From positions 98,774 through 162,773 of the forward strand of contig CAZEED010000001.1 of NCBI GenBank assembly GCA_964510945.1: a stretch of 64,000 bases of DNA, given 5' to 3'. This DNA comes from an uncultured Candidatus Saccharibacteria bacterium (GTDB lineage: Bacteria; Patescibacteriota; Saccharimonadia; Saccharimonadales; JAGQNJ01). Of this stretch, positions 2,712-21,682 are shown in pieces. Each line of letters starts with the position of its first letter. Position 1 is the first letter of the stretch. The notes below the pieces were generated by a model. That model saw only the letters and a program-made list of their open reading frames with translations, was not told where the DNA came from and searched no databases. A program made the translations under genes and the position numbers.

Positions 2712-3929
2712 ATGGATTTAGACATGAAACAGTTAGCGTTAGCCGTACGGACTATCGCAGAAGAGAAAAATTTGCCGGAAGAAACAGTTAAAGAAAGCGT
2801 AGAGCAAGCTTTAGCAGCAGCTTACAGACGAGATTATGGAGATCGTGAACAAGAAGTCCGAGTAACTATGAACCTTAATACAGGCGATATTGACGCTTAT
2901 GTCACTAAAGACGTCGTAGAAAAAGTTGAAGACGACAAAATTCAGATAAGTCTTCGCGATGCCAGTGTGATGAAGAAAGACGCTAAAGTAGGCGATCAGA
3001 TTGAAGTGCATCAAACAGTCGAAAGTTTTGGACGAGTAGCAGCCCAGACAGCAAAACAAGTAATTTTACAAAAACTTCGAGAAAGTGAACGCGAGATCAT
3101 CTTGGCCGAATACGAAGATAAAATCGGAACAGTAATCAATGGAATCGTGTCCCGAGTTGAAGGACGACTAGTGCGCGTTGACATTGGCAAGGCGCAAGGA
3201 ATAATGCCGGTTAGCGAACAGATTCAGGGCGAACACTACTATAGTGGTCAAAGGGTTAAAGTATACCTAAAAGACGTTGAGCGCGGGCTTCGAGGACCAC
3301 AGCTAATAGTGTCTAGAGGAAATACCGAGTTTATAGAATGGTTATTCCAAAACGAAGTGCCCGAGATGGAGAGTGGCGCTGTAGAAATCAAAAAGATTGC
3401 CCGTGAGGCTGGCGTCAGGACAAAACTTGCCGTTAATTCGACTGTACCTGGTGTTGATCCGGTAGGGACATTTGTTGGTGGACACGGCACCAGGGTAAAC
3501 GCGGTGATGAGCGAAGTTGGCGAACAAGAAAAAATCGATATTGTAGTCTGGGATGATGACGTTAAACAGTTCATAATCAATGCTTTGAGCCCAACAAAGG
3601 TTACTAAAGTAGAATTAGATGAAGCTACAAAAAAAGCAAAAGTTTTCGTACCGGAAGATCAACTATCAATTGCTATCGGTAAGAGTGGGCAGAACGTCAG
3701 GCTTGCGAGCAAACTCTCTGGCTATGAGCTAGATATTGAAGGTGATAAATCAAAGGTTGAAGAACCGACTTCTGCTGACGAGAATCCTGAAGTTACAGGA
3801 CCAGTACAAGCTAAGCCTGCGCATAAACCAGCAGAAACTGTTGATACTAAACCAAAAAAGTTAAAGAAGAAAAGTGAGCTAGAAAGTAGCCTGCTCGATG
3901 CTGTCGAAGAACACGGTACTGAAGAGTAA
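2712..3929 (+). CDS. nusA: Transcription termination/antitermination factor NusA
   Basis: ORF 2688-3929; N-terminal NusA domain, S1 then KH region (SIAIGKSGQNVRLASKLSGYELDI). Start placed at ATG 2712 behind GGAAGGA; ATG 2688 abuts the leader T-run. Confidence 0.9.
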   Translation: MDLDMKQLALAVRTIAEEKNLPEETVKESVEQALAAAYRRDYGDREQEVRVTMNLNTGDIDAYVTKDVVEKVEDDKIQISLRDASVMKKDAKVGDQIEVHQTVESFGRVAAQTAKQVILQKLRESEREIILAEYEDKIGTVINGIVSRVEGRLVRVDIGKAQGIMPVSEQIQGEHYYSGQRVKVYLKDVERGLRGPQLIVSRGNTEFIEWLFQNEVPEMESGAVEIKKIAREAGVRTKLAVNSTVPGVDPVGTFVGGHGTRVNAVMSEVGEQEKIDIVVWDDDVKQFIINALSPTKVTKVELDEATKKAKVFVPEDQLSIAIGKSGQNVRLASKLSGYELDIEGDKSKVEEPTSADENPEVTGPVQAKPAHKPAETVDTKPKKLKKKSELESSLLDAVEEHGTEE

Positions 3930-3955
3930 AAGAAGAATAGGTAAATTACATAAAC

Positions 3956-3983
3956 GGCACTCTTGACCCATGTCAAGAATGCC
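3956..3983. promoter_or_regulatory. Imperfect palindrome GGCACTCTTGAC-CCAT-GTCAAGAATGCC sharing its left arm with the CIRCE sites
   Basis: 12-nt arms with one mismatch; the left arm GCACTCTTGAC also occurs at 4141 and 20409. Confidence 0.35.
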
Positions 3984-4029
3984 AAGTATGTTCATCCGCT
4001 GGCACTATCTCTCCAGCGAACTACTCTAA

Positions 4030-4096
4030 CTATTTAGTAATAACTTCACTTTAGTGTAGCTACGGCTACACTAAACTCTGAGTTATTACTAAATAG
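4030..4096. other. Long stable hairpin (16 bp + 11 bp stems, C-TACG-G apical tetraloop) in the nusA-clpC spacer
   Basis: CTATTTAGTAATAACT/AGTTATTACTAAATAG and TTTAGTGTAGC/GCTACACTAAA pair perfectly; 4x5 internal loop; loop TACG at 4061-4064; no T-run. Confidence 0.6.
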
Positions 4097-4137
4097 CGAG
4101 TACTTCATCTTTATAGATACGCTTTCGAACAAACATA

Positions 4138-4175
4138 TTGGCACTCTTGACATGAGAGTGCTAATTTCATAATAT
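4138..4175 (+). promoter_or_regulatory. CIRCE-like operator overlapping the clpC promoter
   Basis: TTGGCACTC-N9-GAGTGCTAA (4138-4164) versus consensus TTAGCACTC-N9-GAGTGCTAA (17/18). The spacer starts with TTGACA (4147-4152); 17 nt later is TAATAT (4170-4175). Confidence 0.7.
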
Positions 4176-4226
4176 GGGAATACGATTATAGTCGTATACA
4201 AAATTAATTCGAGGGATAATTAATAC

Positions 4227-6701
4227 ATGCACCCAAATTCATCTGACTTTCAAGAGTTCTTAAATCACCTGACGGAAAACGCCCTGCAAAGTTTGCGACA
4301 CGCCGACGCTATTGCTCGTAGTGCAAATAGTCCGTACGTAGGTACAGAGCACCTACTGCTCGGTGTATTGGCGCAGGAAGGGTCGTTAGGCTCAAAAGTG
4401 TTAGTTGACGCAGGCGTAACTCTTGATAAAGCTCGGGTTGCGCTAAATCTAAGCCCAAAGAATATCATAATTAATATGGGCGCTAAGGGGCTGAGTGAGA
4501 CCGCAAAATTGACATTAAAAATGGCCTACGATGTAGCACAGGAATTTAATCAAGAGTTCTGCGGGACAGAGCATATTGTGTATAGTATTTTGACTCAGAA
4601 GAATGCTCGAGCCACAGTTTTGGTTAGAGATATGAGAGTTGATGTTGATCGACTAATAACTGAGCTAGAACAATTTTTAAATAAGCAACAATATGATGAG
4701 AACGGCAGTCCGGGTTCAACAAAGCGAGTTAAAAAAGGCAGAAAAACTGCTTTAGACTTTTTTGGCACAGATTTGACCGCTCAGGCAAAAGAAGGAAAGC
4801 TTGATCCAGTAGTTGGTAGAGACCCACAGATCAGACGACTAATCACTATTTTAAATCGTAGAACCAAAAATAACCCAGTATTGATCGGTGAGCCAGGAGT
4901 AGGAAAAACTGCAATCGCTGAGGGGCTTGCTCAAAGAATAGTAAGCGAGGACGTTCCTGACGGTTTGTTGGACAAAAAGATAATAATGCTCGATCTAGCG
5001 GGTATGATCGCAGGGACTAAATACAGGGGCGAATTTGAAGATCGCCTGAAGAAAGTCATGAATGAACTAGAACGAGATAGGAATATTATAATTTTTATCG
5101 ACGAACTTCATTTGATTGTTGGTGCAGGCGCCGCTGAGGGTGCTATGGATGCCGGGAATATTCTAAAACCGGCACTCGCTCGAGGTAAGATTCAGATGAT
5201 TGGTGCTACGACGACAAATGAATATACTAAGCACATCGAGAAAGACGCCGCGTTAGAGCGTCGACTACAGCCCATTCAAGTGCCAGAAACGAACGTTAAT
5301 GAAACAATAGCAATCCTAAAAGGTCTGCGTAAACATTACGAAGCTTTCCACGGAGTAACTATTAGCGATGAAGTTATAACGGATACTGTTCAGCTAGCTA
5401 AAAGGTATATTAATGACAGATTCATGCCTGATAAAGCAATTGATCTTATAGACGAGACTGCGGCGCATCTTCGCCTAGATAAAGGTAGAACACCACCGGA
5501 AGTGAGAAGGCTTAAACAAGAGCTGAAGTTAGTTAATACCCGTATTGAAGATGCAGTTGATGCGGAAGATTACGAGAGAGCCGCCCAAAATAAACAAAGG
5601 GCCAGTCAGATTCAAGAAGAGCTCAAAAAACTAAATTCAAATGAAAAAGTAAACAAAAAAATTGTTATGAATAGCGAGGATGTCGCCGGAACAGTTGCAC
5701 GTATGACCGGTGTACCAGCTAGAAAAGTTATTAGATCTGAAGCAAAGTATCTGATGAACCTAGAAAAGTCTTTAGGTAAGTATGTTATAGGTCAAGACGA
5801 GGCCGTTGAGGCCGTATCTAAGGCTATTAGACGAAATAGATCAGGAGTTGGTAGCGAAAAACGGCCTGTTGGCTCATTCATTTTCCTAGGACCAACAGGG
5901 GTAGGTAAAACGGAACTTGCTAGAGTGCTGGCTAGAGAATTTTATGGATCAGAAGAAGCGCTAGTAAAAATAGACATGAGTGAATTTAGCGAACGACATA
6001 CTGTTGCGCGTTTAGTAGGTGCTCCTGCAGGATACGTTGGATACGATGATGGCGGACAATTAACTGACAAAATCAGACGTCAACCTTATAGTTTAGTTTT
6101 GTTTGACGAGATTGAAAAAGCTCATCCTGAAGTTTTTAACATGCTACTACAAATATTAGAAGATGGACATTTAACTGACGCCAAAGGACGAAAAATTGAT
6201 TTTACTAACACTATAGTGATTATGACTAGCAATATCGGAGCCGAAAAACTCCAGAAAGAAGCGTCATTTGGCTTTTCGGTAAACACTAGCAAACAATTAG
6301 AAAATCTCGACGAGCTTCACAAAGCCAATAAAGATAAGGTGCTAGATGATTTGAAGAAAATGCTACGTCCAGAACTGCTGAATAGAATCGATAAAACAAT
6401 CGTATTTAGAGCTTTAACGAAAAAAGATATTATTCGAATACTTGATCTTCAGGTTGATGAGTTGAAAGAGCGTTTAGTAAAGCATGGTCTTAGCGTTAAA
6501 CTGACGCCTCAGGCTAAGCAATACATGCTAGACAATGGTTATGATGCCAAAAACGGTGTCCGACCGCTCAGACGGCTCCTGCAAGACACGTTGGAGGACT
6601 ATATTGCATCAGAGCTATTGTCTGACAAATATAAAAAAGGCGACATCATATCTATTGATACAAAAAAACACGATTTGACGTATAAAGTAGCTACTGAATA
6701 A
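4227..6701 (+). CDS. clpC: ATP-dependent Clp protease ATP-binding subunit ClpC (class I Hsp100)
   Basis: 824 aa; duplicated Clp_N repeat; Walker [16 protein letters not shown] and [15 protein letters not shown]; short coiled-coil/UVR-like linker between the AAA modules. Confidence 0.9.
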
Positions 6702-6725
6702 GCATTTTTAGTTATAATAGATAGA

Positions 6726-7694
6726 ATGAATTCCAGAAAGAAATCATTTGAGATATTCATTGTTTTCTGTTTATTGTTGGTTGGATTAGGATTTGTCTTT
6801 CGACAGGATTTGATGGATTGGTACACGCTCAGGACCTATGACCCTCCGGCATCTATTGAAAAAATAACAAAAACCAATAAATTCACCGAGTCAGGAAAAA
6901 GATATTTTTATGTAGCTCGTCCCGCGATCGTTAGAGGGGCACAATTTAATCAAAAGTGTCGGGATGGTTTGCCGACAGAGTTTTCTATAGTCCTGGGGTG
7001 TTATATCAATACTGACGGTATCTATCTTTTTAGAGTCACGGATAAGCGATTAAATGGAATTGTAGAAGTAACAGCAGCACATGAAATGTTGCATTCGGCA
7101 TACGACCGATTAAACAGTGATCAAAAAAACGAAGTAGATAAAATGTTGCAAGAAGCTTACCAGGGAATAAAAGACGTTAGGATTAAACGAACGATCGAGC
7201 AATACAAGCAACAAGATCCCTCGAGTGTCCCGAACGAACTACATTCTATACTCGGAACAGAAGTCGCAAATTTGCCCGAAGATCTCGAAAATTATTATAA
7301 GCAATATTTTAAAGATAGGACCACTATTACAGATCTGTCGTCTAGCTATGAATCAGAATTTAGCTCAAGACAGAATAAGGCCGACCAAATTGGCTTGCAG
7401 CTTTCGGGCCTTAAGTCTGAAATTGATTCCGCCCAGCAGTCAGCTAATCAAAAGCGCGCCCAACTCTTAGGTGATAAAAGTTCGTTAGATGATTTATTGG
7501 CGAGCGGAAAAACAGACGAGTATAATTCGCGTGTCGATTCATTCAATAACGAAGTCGCTGTTTACAACGCACTCGTTAAGCAAATTCAAACAAAAATAAA
7601 GTCGTATAACTTGCTGGTAGCCGAGTACCAAGACGTTTCTGTAGAGATAAATGATTTATATCAATCTATAGACAGCCGTCCAAAGTCCCTGTAA
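6726..7694 (+). CDS. Hypothetical membrane-anchored protein with HExxH motif and coiled-coil C-terminus
   Basis: N-terminal hydrophobic helix (IFIVFCLLLVGLGFVF), AAHEMLHSAY, Q/S/L-rich C-terminal third; family not recognised. Confidence 0.5.
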   Translation: MNSRKKSFEIFIVFCLLLVGLGFVFRQDLMDWYTLRTYDPPASIEKITKTNKFTESGKRYFYVARPAIVRGAQFNQKCRDGLPTEFSIVLGCYINTDGIYLFRVTDKRLNGIVEVTAAHEMLHSAYDRLNSDQKNEVDKMLQEAYQGIKDVRIKRTIEQYKQQDPSSVPNELHSILGTEVANLPEDLENYYKQYFKDRTTITDLSSSYESEFSSRQNKADQIGLQLSGLKSEIDSAQQSANQKRAQLLGDKSSLDDLLASGKTDEYNSRVDSFNNEVAVYNALVKQIQTKIKSYNLLVAEYQDVSVEINDLYQSIDSRPKSL

Positions 7695-7714
7695 TCTGAT
7701 ACAATTTTATCTAT

Positions 7715-9049
7715 ATGGCAAAACAGCAAAGAATGTATGTTTGTAGTAATTGTGGTGCTGAGTCTATTGTCTGGGCGGGAAAATGTCAGAGTTGCCAAGA
7801 ATGGAATACTTTAGAAGAAGTAGTAATCGAGAAGAATGTCAGTAAAAGCGCTTCTAAAACGGAAATAAAAATTGTTAACGCAAAAGATGCAATCAACAAT
7901 TTTGAAAAACGAATTGTTGTTGGAATAAGTGAAGTTGATAAAGTTTTGGGCGGAGGATTGGTTAAGGGTGGAGTTGTATTAATTGCTGGAGAACCCGGAA
8001 TTGGAAAAAGCACTCTTTTGTTACAGATGGCCGATGGTTCGGGTGAAAAATCGAAAGTTTTATATGTTAGTGCAGAAGAATCTATTCATCAAGTCGGTCT
8101 GAGAGCGGGTAGGTTAGGAGTAGAAAAAAGTAATATTTCTTTATCGGACGAAACAGATGTGGATTCAATCTCAAACGCGATAAGTTCAAAAAAATTTGAT
8201 GTAGTGATAGTGGATTCTATTCAAACTATATCTACAAATCTACTATCAAGTTCATCTGGTTCTATTAGCCAAATCACTAGTTGTGCTCATATGTTGATCG
8301 AAGCAGCAAAATCATCAAATACAGCAATTATGATCGTTGGACATGTCACTAAAGAGGGAAGTATTGCTGGACCAAAGATCCTCGAGCATCTTGTTGATGT
8401 AGTATTACAGCTGGAAGGTGATAGATACGGTGGCTTTAAATTACTGAGGAGTATAAAAAATCGTTTTGGGAGTACCAATGAGGTGGCTATTTTGGAAATG
8501 GCTGAGAATGGACTAAGAATAGTAGATAACCCTTCAAAAGAACTGCTAAAAGAGCGGCAAATAACTGATGGATCGGTAGTGCTAGCTACAATGGAAGGCA
8601 CACGGCCAGTGCTAGTTGAGGTTCAGGCGCTTGTAAACAAAACTGCCTACGGCTACCCTAAACGCACCGCTAGTGGATTTGATATAAATAGGCTAAATCT
8701 TCTGATTGCAGTTCTAGAGAAAAGGACTAAGCTAAATCTTGCCGATAAAGATATATACATTAATATCGTTGGGGGTATTAGAGTGACCGAGAATGCCGCT
8801 GACCTAGCTGTTTGTATGGCTATAGGATCAGCGGCGAAAGGTCTTAAACTAAAAACTAACTCTGTGGTTTTTGGAGAAATTGGACTAAGCGGTGAAGTTC
8901 GGCATGTTGCAAGTGTTGAAAAAAGAATTCTAGAATCAACAAAAATGGGTTTTAAACAGACGATTGGGCCAAAATCAATGGCCGTAACTAGCCCAAATCA
9001 TTACCGAGCTAAAGATATTCGTACAACTTTAAACGACTTCTTGAAATAG
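7715..9049 (+). CDS. radA: DNA repair protein RadA/Sms
   Basis: C4 zinc ribbon CSNCGAESIVWAGKCQSCQEW, Walker A GEPGIGKST, KNRFG motif, Lon-like C-terminal domain; clpC-radA linkage as in Firmicutes. Confidence 0.92.
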   Translation: MAKQQRMYVCSNCGAESIVWAGKCQSCQEWNTLEEVVIEKNVSKSASKTEIKIVNAKDAINNFEKRIVVGISEVDKVLGGGLVKGGVVLIAGEPGIGKSTLLLQMADGSGEKSKVLYVSAEESIHQVGLRAGRLGVEKSNISLSDETDVDSISNAISSKKFDVVIVDSIQTISTNLLSSSSGSISQITSCAHMLIEAAKSSNTAIMIVGHVTKEGSIAGPKILEHLVDVVLQLEGDRYGGFKLLRSIKNRFGSTNEVAILEMAENGLRIVDNPSKELLKERQITDGSVVLATMEGTRPVLVEVQALVNKTAYGYPKRTASGFDINRLNLLIAVLEKRTKLNLADKDIYINIVGGIRVTENAADLAVCMAIGSAAKGLKLKTNSVVFGEIGLSGEVRHVASVEKRILESTKMGFKQTIGPKSMAVTSPNHYRAKDIRTTLNDFLK

Positions 9050-19995: not shown

Positions 19996-20024
19996 TTGAC
20001 AAAACCACCCTTAACTTATACAAT
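19996..20024 (+). promoter_or_regulatory. Consensus promoter TTGACA-17 nt-TACAAT placed for a leaderless transcript
   Basis: TTGACA 19996-20001, 17-nt spacer, TACAAT 20019-20024, then 6 nt to ATG 20031. Confidence 0.6.
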
Positions 20025-20030
20025 AGTGTG

Positions 20031-20408
20031 ATGTCAAGGAAACCCGAATTAAACTTTGAAGACGTTCGTTCAAATGAAGATTTAGTGAATCTAGGTGTTG
20101 AGCTAGAAAGAAGATACCCTGAGCTTGAACTTGGAATTCTAACAGTCATGTCAAGATACATTGATACACAAAGAGGACCGAATGATGTTGATAACGCAGT
20201 TAACGGATTAAAAAGTTTGGTTATGAGCGGCATCGATCATAGCGACATGACTGAACAAGTAGTACAACCTCATGGTAGCGCACTTACCTCAACTACGTAC
20301 AGAAGGCTCGAAAGACGAGGAATCCTACCTGCTTTTCGGGTTGACGTATCGAAGTCGTCAGCACCAGATCATGGGGTCATTGGAAAGATCTTAACACGTA
20401 AAAACTAG
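20031..20408 (+). CDS. Hypothetical protein (orphan between tig and clpP)
   Basis: 125-aa ORF, no recognisable motif, own promoter, no Shine-Dalgarno. Confidence 0.45.
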
Positions 20409-20431
20409 CACTCTTGACACGAGAGTGCCAA
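20405..20431 (+). promoter_or_regulatory. CIRCE-like operator upstream of clpP
   Basis: CTAGCACTC-N9-GAGTGCCAA (16/18 to consensus); spacer again begins TTGACA (20414-20419). Confidence 0.65.
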
Positions 20432-20470
20432 TTAATGTATTCTATTTGTACAATAAAAGGAGAGAAAATA

Positions 20471-21070
20471 ATGTCCACGAAAGCATCATCAGTATTAATC
20501 CCGACAGTTATTGAATCAGATGGTAGAGTTGAACGGGCTTATGATATATATTCGCGTTTACTCAAAGATCGAATTATATTTTTAGGCACAGACGTTAACG
20601 AGCACACTGCTAATTTAATTGTTGCTCAATTGCTGTTTCTTGAGTCTGAAGACCCAAAGAAAGATATTAAGCTATATATCAATAGTCCAGGTGGTAGTGT
20701 TTATGACGCTCTGGCAATTTATGACACTATGCAGTTTGTAAAAAACGACATAGAGACGGTTGGAATCGGTATCCAAGCTAGTGCAGCGGCATTTTTATTA
20801 AGCTCTGGAACTAAAGGTAAGCGGTTTTTGCTAAAAAACGCCACGGCAATGATCCATCAGCCTTCAGCAGGTACTCGTGGCAAGGTTACTGATATGGAGA
20901 TTGACCTTAAAGAAGGTATAAGAATTAAGCATAAATTAAACGAAATTATGGCCAAAAATACCGGTAAACCTATCAAGCAAGTCGAAAAAGACATGGACCG
21001 AGATTATTGGATGACATCTGATGAAGCAGTAAAATACGGCCTAGCCGACAAAGTCATCACCAACCGCTAA
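20471..21070 (+). CDS. clpP: ATP-dependent Clp protease proteolytic subunit ClpP
   Basis: ORF 20414-21070; start moved to ATG 20471 behind AAAGGAGAG. Catalytic Ser context [37 protein letters not shown]. Confidence 0.93.
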
Positions 21071-21082
21071 AATACCCACTTT

Positions 21083-21682
21083 ATGAGTACATTGCAAAAT
21101 CGATCTGAAAAATATTTAGTATCAGTTGCCGAAGCGACTCAATGGATTGTTGAAATGGGTTTACCGGAAGAACATATACCCCAATACAATTCTTTAAATA
21201 GATTGTATTGGGGTGGACATTTTGGTCAGGCAGTAATAGTTCTCGCTAACCAAGAGCCAGTAAATCGCAGTATGGATCTAGGTCTAATCTATGCCGCAGT
21301 AAGTGCTCGTAACTCTTGCAGCTATTTGGGGACACCAATTAAATCTCGACAAGATCAATTCGCTAAATCGTATAGTAAATTCGGTAAAGCATGGGCAGCT
21401 GCAGATAATAGGTTCCAGAAGGGATTAGAGCCCAGTATGATGGGTGCGTTAGCATTTGTGTTCGCTCCATCAAAGAGCGAATTAAGTTCTCCAATACCTG
21501 GTGGTGTACTTATCGCGGCACATCCCTCAAATTCTGAATATTTGCCGGATTTCTGCGGATTGTATGGGTGGGATACTAATAGATATGCGCCTTTTGAGGA
21601 TGAAGATCATAAAGTCGGCGCAGCAGAAGACCATTACCCTAATAGACTCGGATTCCTATTACCTGAAGTTCAGCCAAACTAG
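21083..21682 (+). CDS. Hypothetical protein (cargo between clpP and the clpP 3' relic)
   Basis: 199-aa ORF; Trp/Gly-rich, no recognised family. Confidence 0.45.
   Translation: MSTLQNRSEKYLVSVAEATQWIVEMGLPEEHIPQYNSLNRLYWGGHFGQAVIVLANQEPVNRSMDLGLIYAAVSARNSCSYLGTPIKSRQDQFAKSYSKFGKAWAAADNRFQKGLEPSMMGALAFVFAPSKSELSSPIPGGVLIAAHPSNSEYLPDFCGLYGWDTNRYAPFEDEDHKVGAAEDHYPNRLGFLLPEVQPN

What the first reader, a model, noticed from the sequence alone, without database searches (positions are those of the whole stretch)
4138..4175. Near-consensus CIRCE operator embedded in the clpC promoter
Seen: TTGGCACTC-TTGACATGA-GAGTGCTAA (4138-4164) matches the CIRCE consensus TTAGCACTC-N9-GAGTGCTAA at 17 of 18 positions. 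Its 9-nt spacer supplies a TTGACA -35 box, with TAATAT 17 nt downstream. A related palindrome reusing the left arm (GGCACTCTTGAC-CCAT-GTCAAGAATGCC) lies at 3956-3983.

Established: CIRCE is the HrcA operator and classically controls groESL and dnaK. clpC is normally under CtsR in Firmicutes or ClgR in Actinobacteria. Expanded HrcA regulons that include protease genes are known from Mollicutes.

Inference: in this reduced genome the Clp machinery has been placed under HrcA-type control, with the operator occluding the -35 box.
Basis: partly seen in the sequence, partly recalled or inferred. Interest (0 to 1): 0.55.

Follow-up and report, generated by a model that had tools for sequence, protein, structure and literature searches.

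The report
HrcA heat-shock operator on Clp promoters
The clpC and clpP protease genes of this ultra-small Saccharibacteria (CPR) bacterium carry the heat-shock repressor site CIRCE wrapped around their promoter -35 box. In this lineage protein degradation therefore appears to be wired into the same HrcA stress switch as the chaperones, which is a real but modest extension of a well-known system.

Summary
TTGGCACTC-TTGACATGA-GAGTGCTAA (4138-4164) matches CIRCE at 17 of 18 positions. Its spacer holds a TTGACA -35 box, with TAATAT 17 nt downstream, 52 nt before a true clpC.

Chance predicts 0.03 sites per window.

The downstream genes were dnaK (45), hrcA (32), hsp20 (14), clpC/clpB (12) and clpP (5).

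clpC loci retrieved by protein similarity alone gave the same answer. All four close relatives have a CIRCE 60-90 nt upstream. Only 1 of 76 loci from more distant ClpC homologues has one, and that match is weak. Seven of those 76 carry ctsR instead.

No CtsR or ClgR boxes occur here. HrcA control of ClpCP is therefore well supported by comparison. hrcA in this same genome could not be checked.

The "related palindrome" is the left end of a conserved ~210-nt foldback with compensatory changes. This foldback recurs upstream of hrcA, dnaK and clpC promoters, and its function is unknown.

The site is a new variant of a known system, of moderate interest.

The parts
4138..4164 (.). CIRCE operator of clpC: TTGGCACTC-TTGACATGA-GAGTGCTAA, 17 of 18 matches to the consensus with an exact 9-nt spacer
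   Evidence: conserved in orthologous clpC promoters
4147..4152 (+). -35 hexamer TTGACA, lying inside the CIRCE spacer
   Evidence: TTGACA or TTGnnn occupies the same place in relatives
4170..4175 (+). -10 hexamer TAATAT, 17 nt after the -35 box; the transcription start is inferred near 4182
   Evidence: 105 of 121 sites of this architecture have a -10-like hexamer at 16-18 nt
4227..6701 (+). clpC (824 aa): Clp_N, two AAA+ modules, short middle domain. The best solved-structure matches are S. aureus and B. subtilis ClpC, aligned end to end
6726..9049 (+). Probable co-transcribed genes: orf322 (6726-7694, no Pfam family) and radA (7715-9049). The gaps are 24 and 20 nt on the same strand. The operon itself is an inference
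20405..20431 (.). Second CIRCE operator, CTAGCACTC-TTGACACGA-GAGTGCCAA (2 mismatches), with TTGACA at 20414-20419. It overlaps the stop codon of the upstream orf126
   Evidence: conserved between strains whose upstream gene differs
20438..20443 (+). -10-like hexamer TATTCT, 18 nt after the embedded -35 box of the clpP promoter
   Evidence: read; the same geometry occurs in clpP promoters of L033, L053, L065, L074 and L105
20471..21070 (+). clpP (199 aa; Pfam CLP_protease E=1e-77; NCBIfam PRK00277 above its cut-off)
3954..3985 (.). P1, a pseudo-CIRCE: ACGGCACTC-TTGACCCATGTCAA-GAATGCCAA. The half-sites are CIRCE-like but the spacer is 14 nt. Its right half is the reverse complement of the true operator's left arm plus spacer. 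It starts 25 nt after the nusA stop codon
   Evidence: (repeats I1, I2, D1)
4030..4096 (.). Central long hairpin of the foldback. Its apex is GTAGC-TACG-GCTAC (4056-4069)
3954..4164 (.). The whole ~210-nt foldback module: P1, central hairpin and CIRCE. It is conserved with compensatory changes in nine loci upstream of clpC, hrcA or dnaK

Best explanation
The site at 4138-4164 is a genuine CIRCE operator, the DNA target of the HrcA heat-shock repressor. It is built into a sigma-70-type promoter of clpC so that the two 9-bp arms flank the -35 hexamer.

Under non-stress conditions an HrcA dimer bound to the arms would cover roughly positions -44 to -18 and stop RNA polymerase from contacting the -35 box. 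When HrcA loses activity under heat or unfolded-protein stress, clpC is transcribed, probably together with orf322 and radA.

An equivalent operator-promoter controls clpP 16 kb away. The ClpCP protease therefore belongs to one HrcA regulon together with hrcA-grpE-dnaK, dnaJ and hsp20, and this holds across Saccharibacteria.

Shown here: the sequence, its geometry, its statistical excess, its conservation at orthologous promoters, its co-occurrence with hrcA and dnaK operators in the lineage, and the absence of CtsR and ClgR signals.

Inferred: that HrcA binds it, that binding represses transcription, what signal inactivates HrcA, and that this particular genome still encodes hrcA.
For: - Sequence and promoter geometry agree with the model.
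- A second site lies at clpP.
My own arithmetic gives about 17 expected by chance in 596 Gb. About 80 loci are titled Saccharibacteria and 14 other Patescibacteria.
- First downstream ORFs were DnaK 45, HrcA 32, Hsp20 14, Clp ATPase 12 and ClpP 5. Representatives were confirmed by Pfam, NCBIfam and PDB searches.
- The three outer bases of each arm were not part of the search pattern, yet they match the consensus: T 88%, T 98%, A 81%, then T 79%, A 100%, A 86%.
- 105 of 121 sites have a -10-like hexamer at 16-18 nt.
- Unbiased clpC loci: 4 of 4 close relatives (60-78% identity) carry a CIRCE 61-87 nt upstream, against 1 weak hit in 76 distant loci.
- The arms are invariant while the flanks are unalignable.
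- In hrcA loci retrieved by protein similarity, a CIRCE precedes hrcA wherever at least about 50 nt of upstream sequence was present, and dnaK wherever its upstream region lay within the locus.
- At least 8000 short-form HrcA homologues exist in the metagenome database.
- No CtsR or ClgR box and no ctsR gene were found.
Against: - hrcA was not found for this very genome. The window lacks it, and six look-ups of candidate HrcA proteins hit other organisms.
- No binding or expression data exist. HrcA is not mentioned in any Saccharibacteria paper in the library.
- groESL, described as the only constant HrcA target in other bacteria (PMC545781), was never seen downstream of this motif in Saccharibacteria. 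The usual GroEL-based feedback on HrcA may therefore not apply.
- The lineage's HrcA is a short form of 234 aa. It scores just below the NCBIfam hrcA cut-off (181.8 against 197.2 bits).
- The operator is also the 3' arm of a conserved foldback, so part of its conservation could serve that structure instead.
Confidence: 0.85

Rival explanations
1. The conserved palindrome is recognised by a repressor other than HrcA. This would be a lineage-specific regulator that happens to share, or has taken over, the CIRCE sequence. The Clp genes would then be co-regulated with the chaperones, but not by HrcA.
For: The lineage's HrcA is a truncated form lacking about 100 residues of the canonical protein, and it falls just under the NCBIfam cut-off. 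There are no binding data. hrcA was not verified in this genome.
Against: The motif is the canonical CIRCE over all 18 arm positions with the exact 9-nt spacer. It precedes hrcA itself in 32 motif-selected loci and in every protein-selected hrcA locus with enough upstream sequence. That is the classic autoregulatory arrangement. The winged-helix DNA-binding domain aligns with T. maritima HrcA, PDB 1STZ, at E=1e-17.
Confidence: 0.05
2. The element is mainly structural. It would be part of a long hairpin that terminates or insulates read-through from nusA, or that extrudes as a cruciform. Its resemblance to CIRCE at clpC would be secondary, and HrcA would not regulate clpC in this genome.
For: The operator is the 3' arm of a ~210-nt foldback. 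The RNA fold has z = -10.4. Across nine loci, 90.5% of cells are paired and 23 pairs show compensatory changes, against 11.2 +/- 2.3 in shuffles. All nine modules follow a co-directional upstream gene.
Against: Most clpC and clpP promoters with the CIRCE have no foldback; only 6 of 123 fully flanked sites have the upstream copy. They still keep the arms, the -35 and the -10. The clpP site in this window has no foldback. No terminator-like T-tract follows on the + strand. The arms are invariant rather than covarying, as expected for a protein-binding site (helix 1). The antisense strand folds better than the sense strand, which argues against a sense-RNA terminator.
Confidence: 0.07
3. The site is a relic. 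The lineage once regulated clpC through HrcA, but this genome has lost hrcA or the operator no longer functions.
For: hrcA was not seen in the 64-kb window and could not be traced for this organism.
Against: Both operators are near-perfect (1 and 2 mismatches) and both keep intact -35 and -10 boxes. The clpP operator is preserved between two strain types of this species whose upstream gene differs. HrcA is highly conserved and ubiquitous in the order.
Confidence: 0.03

Closest known systems
Class I heat-shock regulon: HrcA repressor and CIRCE operator (Bacillus subtilis dnaK and groE operons; Zuber & Schumann 1994, as cited in PMC6305308)
   Same: It has the same 9-N9-9 inverted repeat, TTAGCACTC-N9-GAGTGCTAA. 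The same autoregulated hrcA-grpE-dnaK cluster occurs in relatives. The logic, a repressor blocking a vegetative sigma-70-type promoter, is also the same.
   Different: The targets here include clpC, clpP and hsp20. groESL was not seen among the targets. The operator flanks the -35 box instead of lying between the transcription start and the ribosome-binding site. The lineage's HrcA is about 100 residues shorter.
Expanded HrcA regulon of Mycoplasma pneumoniae: dnaK, dnaJ, clpB, groESL, lon, pepA, pip (PMC7737663)
   Same: It is a reduced genome with a single stress repressor, and CIRCE controls a quality-control protease (Lon) and an Hsp100 ATPase (ClpB) in addition to chaperones.
   Different: The protease system differs: ClpC plus ClpP here, Lon there. 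The phylum is unrelated (Patescibacteria). GroEL feedback is documented in Mycoplasma but is unverified here.
clpP of Streptococcus salivarius, dually regulated by CtsR and HrcA (Chastanet & Msadek 2003, J Bacteriol 185:683; seen only as a reference in PMC3842655 and PMC6305308, content from my own knowledge)
   Same: A CIRCE lies in a clpP promoter, so HrcA control of clpP has a precedent.
   Different: There HrcA acts together with CtsR. Here no CtsR box or ctsR gene is present, so HrcA would be the sole known regulator. clpC is included as well.
CtsR class III regulon of Firmicutes (ctsR-mcsA-mcsB-clpC operon; clpP, clpE)
   Same: The regulated genes (clpC, clpP) and even the clpC-radA neighbourhood are the same.
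   Different: The operator (tandem heptads) and the repressor are completely different. ctsR lies upstream of clpC in 7 control loci but not here.
Promoter-bearing foldback repeats such as Neisseria Correia elements (comparison from my own knowledge, for the 210-nt module only)
   Same: Both are short elements of about 100-200 nt that fold back on themselves. One end supplies promoter parts to the adjacent gene.
   Different: There is only one copy in 64 kb. It is found only next to HrcA-regulon genes. No target-site duplication or transposase link was established. The arms covary across genomes, which independent mobile copies would not be expected to do.

Membership tests
CIRCE / HrcA operator | Inverted repeat TTAGCACTC-N9-GAGTGCTAA with an exact 9-nt spacer and few mismatches | tested here: met
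   4138-4164 has 1 mismatch and 20405-20431 has 2 mismatches. Expected by chance: 0.03 per window.
CIRCE / HrcA operator | Position within the promoter or 5' region of a proteostasis gene | tested here: met
   The site flanks the -35 box of a 10/12 sigma-70-like promoter 52 nt before clpC. The geometry is the same before clpP.
CIRCE / HrcA operator | The same operator precedes hrcA itself and the dnaK (and/or groE) operon in the organism | tested here: inconclusive
   Met in relatives: hrcA 32 loci, dnaK 45 loci, plus dnaJ and grpE. Not testable in the same genome. groESL was never seen in Saccharibacteria loci.
CIRCE / HrcA operator | An hrcA gene in the same genome | not testable with these tools
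   The window has none. Six look-ups of candidate HrcA proteins led to other organisms. HrcA is ubiquitous in the order, with at least 8000 homologues.
CIRCE / HrcA operator | Site conserved at orthologous promoters while the flanks diverge (phylogenetic footprint) | tested here: met
   4 of 4 protein-retrieved close clpC relatives have it, against 1 weak hit in 76 distant loci.
CIRCE / HrcA operator | Binding by HrcA and derepression on heat shock | not testable with these tools
   This needs a gel shift or footprint, and transcriptomics.
CtsR (class III) regulon | Tandem heptad operator RGTCAAANANRGTCAAA in the clp promoter | tested here: not met
   No match with up to 3 mismatches in 3930-4226 or 20300-20470.
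CtsR (class III) regulon | A ctsR gene, typically the first gene of the clpC operon | tested here: not met
   tblastn with a CtsR query, validated against PDB 3H0D, found nothing in the window or in Saccharibacteria loci. It found ctsR upstream of clpC in 7 control loci. The rest of the genome was not tested.
ClgR regulon (Actinobacteria) | ClgR box CGCYNANRGCG in the clp promoter | tested here: not met
   No match with up to 1 mismatch in either promoter region.
ClpC (class I Hsp100, ClpP partner) | N-domain repeats, two AAA+ modules, a short middle domain and a ClpP-docking loop | tested here: met
   Pfam finds Clp_N, AAA, AAA_lid_9, AAA_2 and ClpB_D2-small. The best PDB hits are S. aureus and B. 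subtilis ClpC aligned end to end, whereas ClpB aligns in two pieces. An FGF tripeptide sits at the place of the B. subtilis VGF loop; this is read, and the loop's role is from my own knowledge.
Intrinsic terminator (for P1 and the foldback) | G+C-rich hairpin followed by a T-run on the transcribed strand | tested here: not met
   No + strand terminator-like site was reported in 3850-4300. The only hits are on the - strand.
MITE-like or Correia-like foldback element (for the 210-nt module) | Many dispersed copies per genome, terminal inverted repeats and target-site duplication | tested here: inconclusive
   Inverted ends are present. GCACTCTTGAC occurs only at the two promoters and P1 in 64 kb. 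No empty site or duplication was identified.

The most novel reading that the evidence does not exclude
The ~210-nt foldback is a functional unit in its own right. It runs from a half-CIRCE/-35 palindrome with a 14-nt spacer, through a central hairpin, to the true CIRCE promoter. It could be a copyable promoter-operator cassette that installs HrcA control in front of new genes, which would explain how clpC joined the regulon. Alternatively it could be a supercoil- or temperature-sensitive cruciform that gates access to the -35 box and operator at heat-shock promoters.

The evidence does not exclude this. The window's clpC module is 68% identical over 223 nt to the hrcA module of another genome. 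The two copies of TTAGCACTCTTGAC keep a fixed spacing of 176-185 nt in nine loci at three different genes. The arms covary, including the otherwise free spacer bases.
Probability: 0.2. Interest if true: 0.7.

Novelty: new variant of a known kind. Interest (0 to 1): 0.5.

Why it matters
Almost nothing is known about gene regulation in Saccharibacteria and other CPR/Patescibacteria. The library holds no paper linking HrcA to this group.

This result gives a concrete, testable regulon for them: one repressor, one 27-bp operator fused to the -35 box, and a target set of hrcA-grpE-dnaK, dnaJ, hsp20, clpC and clpP.

It shows that a reduced genome can put chaperones and the ClpCP protease under a single switch that Firmicutes split between HrcA and CtsR. 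The consensus operator-promoter is also a ready-made stress-inducible part for the newly tractable Saccharibacteria.

Two side observations could matter more than the operator itself if confirmed. One is the apparent absence of groESL from the target set, together with a short-form HrcA. The other is the covarying foldback.

Tried and rejected
**Explanations rejected**
- Chance match: rejected by shuffles and by the genome-wide scan.
- Known RNA family: Rfam at E<=1 gave only sub-threshold hairpin look-alikes for 3800-4400.
- CtsR or ClgR control: no boxes and no ctsR gene.
- P1 as a second working promoter: a -10 box is not conserved after its TTGAC in the nine modules (read).
- P1 as a normal HrcA site: its 13-14-nt spacer departs from the otherwise invariant 9 nt. 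Of sites with at most one arm mismatch, 195 have a 9-nt spacer and 1-4 have any other length.
- High-copy MITE: only one module occurs in 64 kb. A simple long-hairpin scan showed that other promoters have unrelated upstream hairpins.

**Searches that led nowhere**
- Tracing hrcA of the same organism. HrcA searches seeded from L072 and L048 and look-ups of P0098, P0128, P0129, P0134 and P0135 all led to other samples or assemblies.
- Looking for one locus carrying both hrcA and a clp gene: none found.
- The metagenome scan with ClpC mostly returned distant ClpC from other phyla, because one search peptide (FDEIEKAH) is universal. I used those loci as a control set instead.
- Strand test for an RNA structure. 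The sense and antisense alignments both fold and the antisense folds better, so no strand could be assigned.
- Whether Saccharibacteria have GroEL. Literature searches were uninformative. One supplement reports 42 of 505 CPR genomes lacking both groEL and groES, but not which classes.

Full report
**1. The observation**

The sequence is exactly as described. TTGGCACTC lies at 4138-4146, TTGACATGA at 4147-4155 and GAGTGCTAA at 4156-4164. That is one mismatch to the CIRCE consensus with the canonical 9-nt spacer.

The spacer begins with TTGACA. TAATAT follows after 17 nt. The promoter scan scores the pair 10/12. A GAGGG ribosome-binding site (4211-4215) and the ATG at 4227 follow.

The ORF 4227-6701 is a real ClpC. 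Pfam finds Clp_N, AAA, AAA_lid_9, AAA_2 and ClpB_D2-small. The best solved-structure matches are S. aureus and B. subtilis ClpC aligned end to end at E around 1e-236, whereas ClpB aligns only in two pieces.

With up to three mismatches, CIRCE is expected 0.03 times in this window, and two sites were found.

**2.

CTAGCACTC-TTGACACGA-GAGTGCCAA lies at 20405-20431. It has the same TTGACA-containing spacer, and TATTCT follows 18 nt after the -35 box. The site sits 40 nt upstream of clpP (20471-21070; Pfam CLP_protease E=1e-77).

Both genes of the ClpCP protease therefore carry the same operator-promoter. The window holds no hrcA, dnaK, groEL or ctsR.

**3. What the motif marks elsewhere**

I scanned one genome per species (185,579 species) for GCACTCTTGACANNNGAGTGC. 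My own arithmetic puts the chance expectation near 17 for the whole 596 Gb.

By record title:
- about 80 loci are Saccharibacteria, Saccharimonadales or Nanosyn-type;
- 14 are other Patescibacteria;
- 9 are unnamed "bacterium" MAGs;
- the rest are Chloroflexota (5), Streptococcus mitis/oralis group (5) and singletons.

The first ORF downstream of each site clusters as follows:

| Downstream gene | Loci | Note |
|---|---|---|
| DnaK | 45 | |
| HrcA | 32 | |
| Hsp20 | 14 | |
| Clp ATPase | 12 | 9 ClpC-like in Saccharibacteria; 3 ClpB-like in Fervidobacterium and other Patescibacteria |
| ClpP | 5 | |

Representatives were confirmed by searches. The HrcA representative matches PF01628 and PF03444, TIGR00331 at E=3e-53, and PDB 1STZ at E=1e-17. 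Hsp20 and ClpP were also confirmed.

The outer three bases of each arm were not in the search pattern, yet they match the consensus at 79-100%. A -10-like hexamer lies 16-18 nt after the embedded TTGACA in 105 of 121 sites.

A looser scan of the same loci added dnaJ (10 sites), grpE, and second operators downstream of the -10 box at many dnaK and hrcA promoters.

**4. An unbiased test at clpC**

I retrieved clpC loci from metagenomes by protein similarity only. The four closest relatives (78, 73, 62 and 60% identity) all have a CIRCE 61-87 nt before the gene. Their spacers hold -35-like variants: TTGCAT, TTGACT, TTGACC and TTGATA.

Of the 76 more distant loci, one has a dubious 3-mismatch match at -295. 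Seven of those distant loci instead have ctsR just upstream of clpC (the CtsR query was validated against PDB 3H0D).

Alignments show invariant arms, a -35 box and a -10 box in otherwise unalignable flanks, both for clpC and for clpP. For clpP this includes two strain types of this same species whose upstream gene differs.

In hrcA loci retrieved by protein similarity, a CIRCE precedes hrcA wherever at least about 50 nt of upstream sequence was present. It precedes dnaK wherever the dnaK upstream region lay within the locus.

Neither promoter in the window contains a CtsR or ClgR box.

**5. The mechanism I commit to**

HrcA binds the two arms and thereby occludes the -35 hexamer. Stress inactivates HrcA, and clpC is then transcribed, likely with orf322 and radA given gaps of 24 and 20 nt. 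clpP is transcribed in parallel, alongside the chaperone genes.

The operator lies upstream of the inferred transcription start, so the mRNA-level role reported for transcribed CIRCE elements does not apply to it.

Binding, repression and the inactivating signal are all inferred. I put the confidence at about 0.85.

**6. What remains open for this genome**

I could not show hrcA in the same organism. The window's ClpC and ClpP occur on Logan, JGI and ENA contigs and in NCBI assembly GCA_041908185.1. The HrcA candidates I looked up belong to other samples.

HrcA is nevertheless ubiquitous and very conserved in the order. At least 8000 homologues exist, and the top 120 are 85-100% identical to one query.

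This HrcA is a short form of 234 aa that lacks roughly 100 residues of the canonical middle region.

No groESL appeared downstream of the motif, or anywhere else, in about 1 Mb of Saccharibacteria loci. Yet groESL is called the only constant HrcA target elsewhere (PMC545781). One survey reports 42 of 505 CPR genomes lacking both groEL and groES, without naming the classes. How HrcA activity is sensed here is therefore unknown.

**7. The "related palindrome" is more than that**

P1 (3954-3985) reads ACGGCACTC-TTGACCCATGTCAA-GAATGCCAA. It has CIRCE-like half-sites but a 14-nt spacer. Its right half is the reverse complement of the true operator's left arm plus spacer (17 nt, 94% complementary).

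Midway between P1 and the operator lies a ~30-bp hairpin (4030-4096) with the apex GTAGC-TACG-GCTAC. The 297-nt intergenic region folds with z = -10.4.

The whole module is 68% identical over 223 nt to the gmk-hrcA intergenic region of another Saccharimonadales genome, L048. The alignment score is 106, against 8.4 +/- 4.3 for shuffles.

Profile searches find full-length copies upstream of dnaK (L076, L095, L057), hrcA (L048) and clpC (L099, L127).

Across all loci, same-strand pairs of GCACTCTTGA pile up at 176-185 nt.

Nine non-redundant modules align into one foldback:
- 90.5% of cells are paired, against 78.4 +/- 1.0 in shuffles and 33-41% when the partners are slid.
- 23 pairs show compensatory changes, against 11.2 +/- 2.3 (0 of 500 shuffles reach 23).
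- The covarying positions include the otherwise free spacer bases of the operator.

The antisense alignment folds even better (-57.5 against -33.5 kcal/mol). A sense-RNA terminator is therefore not specifically supported. A DNA-level palindrome or concerted evolution is equally possible.

All nine modules directly follow a co-directional gene. Only about 5% of promoters of this type have the module, and the window holds one copy. I leave its function unexplained.

**8. Comparison with what is known**

The system works like, and by sequence belongs to, the HrcA/CIRCE class I heat-shock system.
- Placing a protease or Hsp100 gene under HrcA has precedents in Mycoplasma pneumoniae (lon, clpB; PMC7737663).
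- By my own knowledge of Chastanet & Msadek 2003 (reference seen), clpP of Streptococcus salivarius is controlled by HrcA jointly with CtsR.
- Chlamydiae have other predicted extra members (PMC4652624).
- A -35 box inside the first CIRCE also occurs at the hrcA promoter of S. mitis/oralis.

What is new is the combination, conserved across a CPR phylum: clpC plus clpP plus hsp20 under apparently sole HrcA control, a short-form HrcA, groESL not seen among the targets, and an occasional covarying foldback that includes the operator. No paper in the library connects HrcA with Saccharibacteria.

**9. Verdict**

I rate it a new variant of a known kind, with interest about 0.5.

Noticed in passing
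window 3954-4164; also L048:1157-1368, L219:4702-4910, L227:4668-4878, L057:863-1065(-), L076:2712-2920(-), L095:3599-3805(-), L099:2855-3059, L127:2-211: A ~210-nt foldback module precedes clpC, hrcA or dnaK in different Saccharibacteria. It consists of a half-CIRCE/-35 palindrome with a 13-14-nt spacer, a central hairpin, and the true CIRCE promoter. The two TTAGCACTCTTGAC copies are spaced a fixed 176-185 nt apart, and the arms show strong compensatory covariation. Its function is unknown.
   Followed up: partly
window 4056-4069; L048 at about 1260; L076 at about 4850: The identical 14-mer GTAGCTACGGCTAC forms the apex of long hairpins whose stems differ in sequence. It occurs in three genomes, each time between a co-directional upstream gene (nusA or gmk) and an HrcA-regulated promoter. 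In L076 the loop is inverted relative to the direction of transcription.
   Followed up: partly
loci L007-L129 (Saccharibacteria subset): No groES or groEL was found downstream of any CIRCE, or anywhere else, in about 1 Mb of Saccharibacteria loci. The only groESL hit was in Dehalococcoides (L045). A published table lists 42 of 505 CPR genomes lacking both genes without naming the classes. The HrcA regulon here may therefore work without GroEL.
   Followed up: partly
L072:4223-4927 and other HrcA proteins (P0001-P0240): HrcA in Saccharimonadales is a short form of about 234 aa, against about 340 aa normally. It lacks roughly the first half of the Pfam HrcA C-terminal domain. It is very conserved, with at least 8000 homologues in metagenomes.
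   Followed up: partly
window 21083-21682: A 199-aa ORF with no Pfam family lies directly after clpP. It is present in some strains of this species and absent in others, where clpP is followed directly by the 210-aa ORF.
   Followed up: no
window 19996-20024 and 20028-20408: A near-perfect sigma-70 promoter (TTGACA-17-TACAAT) lies just after tig. It drives a 126-aa ORF of unknown family whose stop codon lies inside the clpP CIRCE. In other strains a different 143-aa ORF occupies this place.
   Followed up: no
window 4227-9049: The order clpC-orf322-radA recalls the Firmicutes clpC-radA neighbourhood, but without ctsR, mcsA or mcsB. radA may therefore be co-regulated by HrcA.
   Followed up: no
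L018, L025 (Chloroflexota): In Dehalococcoidia and Tepidiformales, the embedded-(-35) CIRCE precedes a small zinc-ribbon protein (MPTYDYHCAKCK..., FmdB-like by eye) rather than a chaperone gene.
   Followed up: no
L022 near 6141 and L123 near 5538(-): Some dnaK promoters carry two tandem CIRCE elements, each with a TTGAC spacer, 46-47 nt apart. Many others carry a second ordinary CIRCE between the -10 box and the start codon.
   Followed up: no
L003-L006 (Logan contigs of the same strain): Several short-read contigs of this organism end exactly at or inside the clpC CIRCE and foldback. This suggests that the repeated operator sequence breaks de Bruijn-graph assemblies.
   Followed up: no
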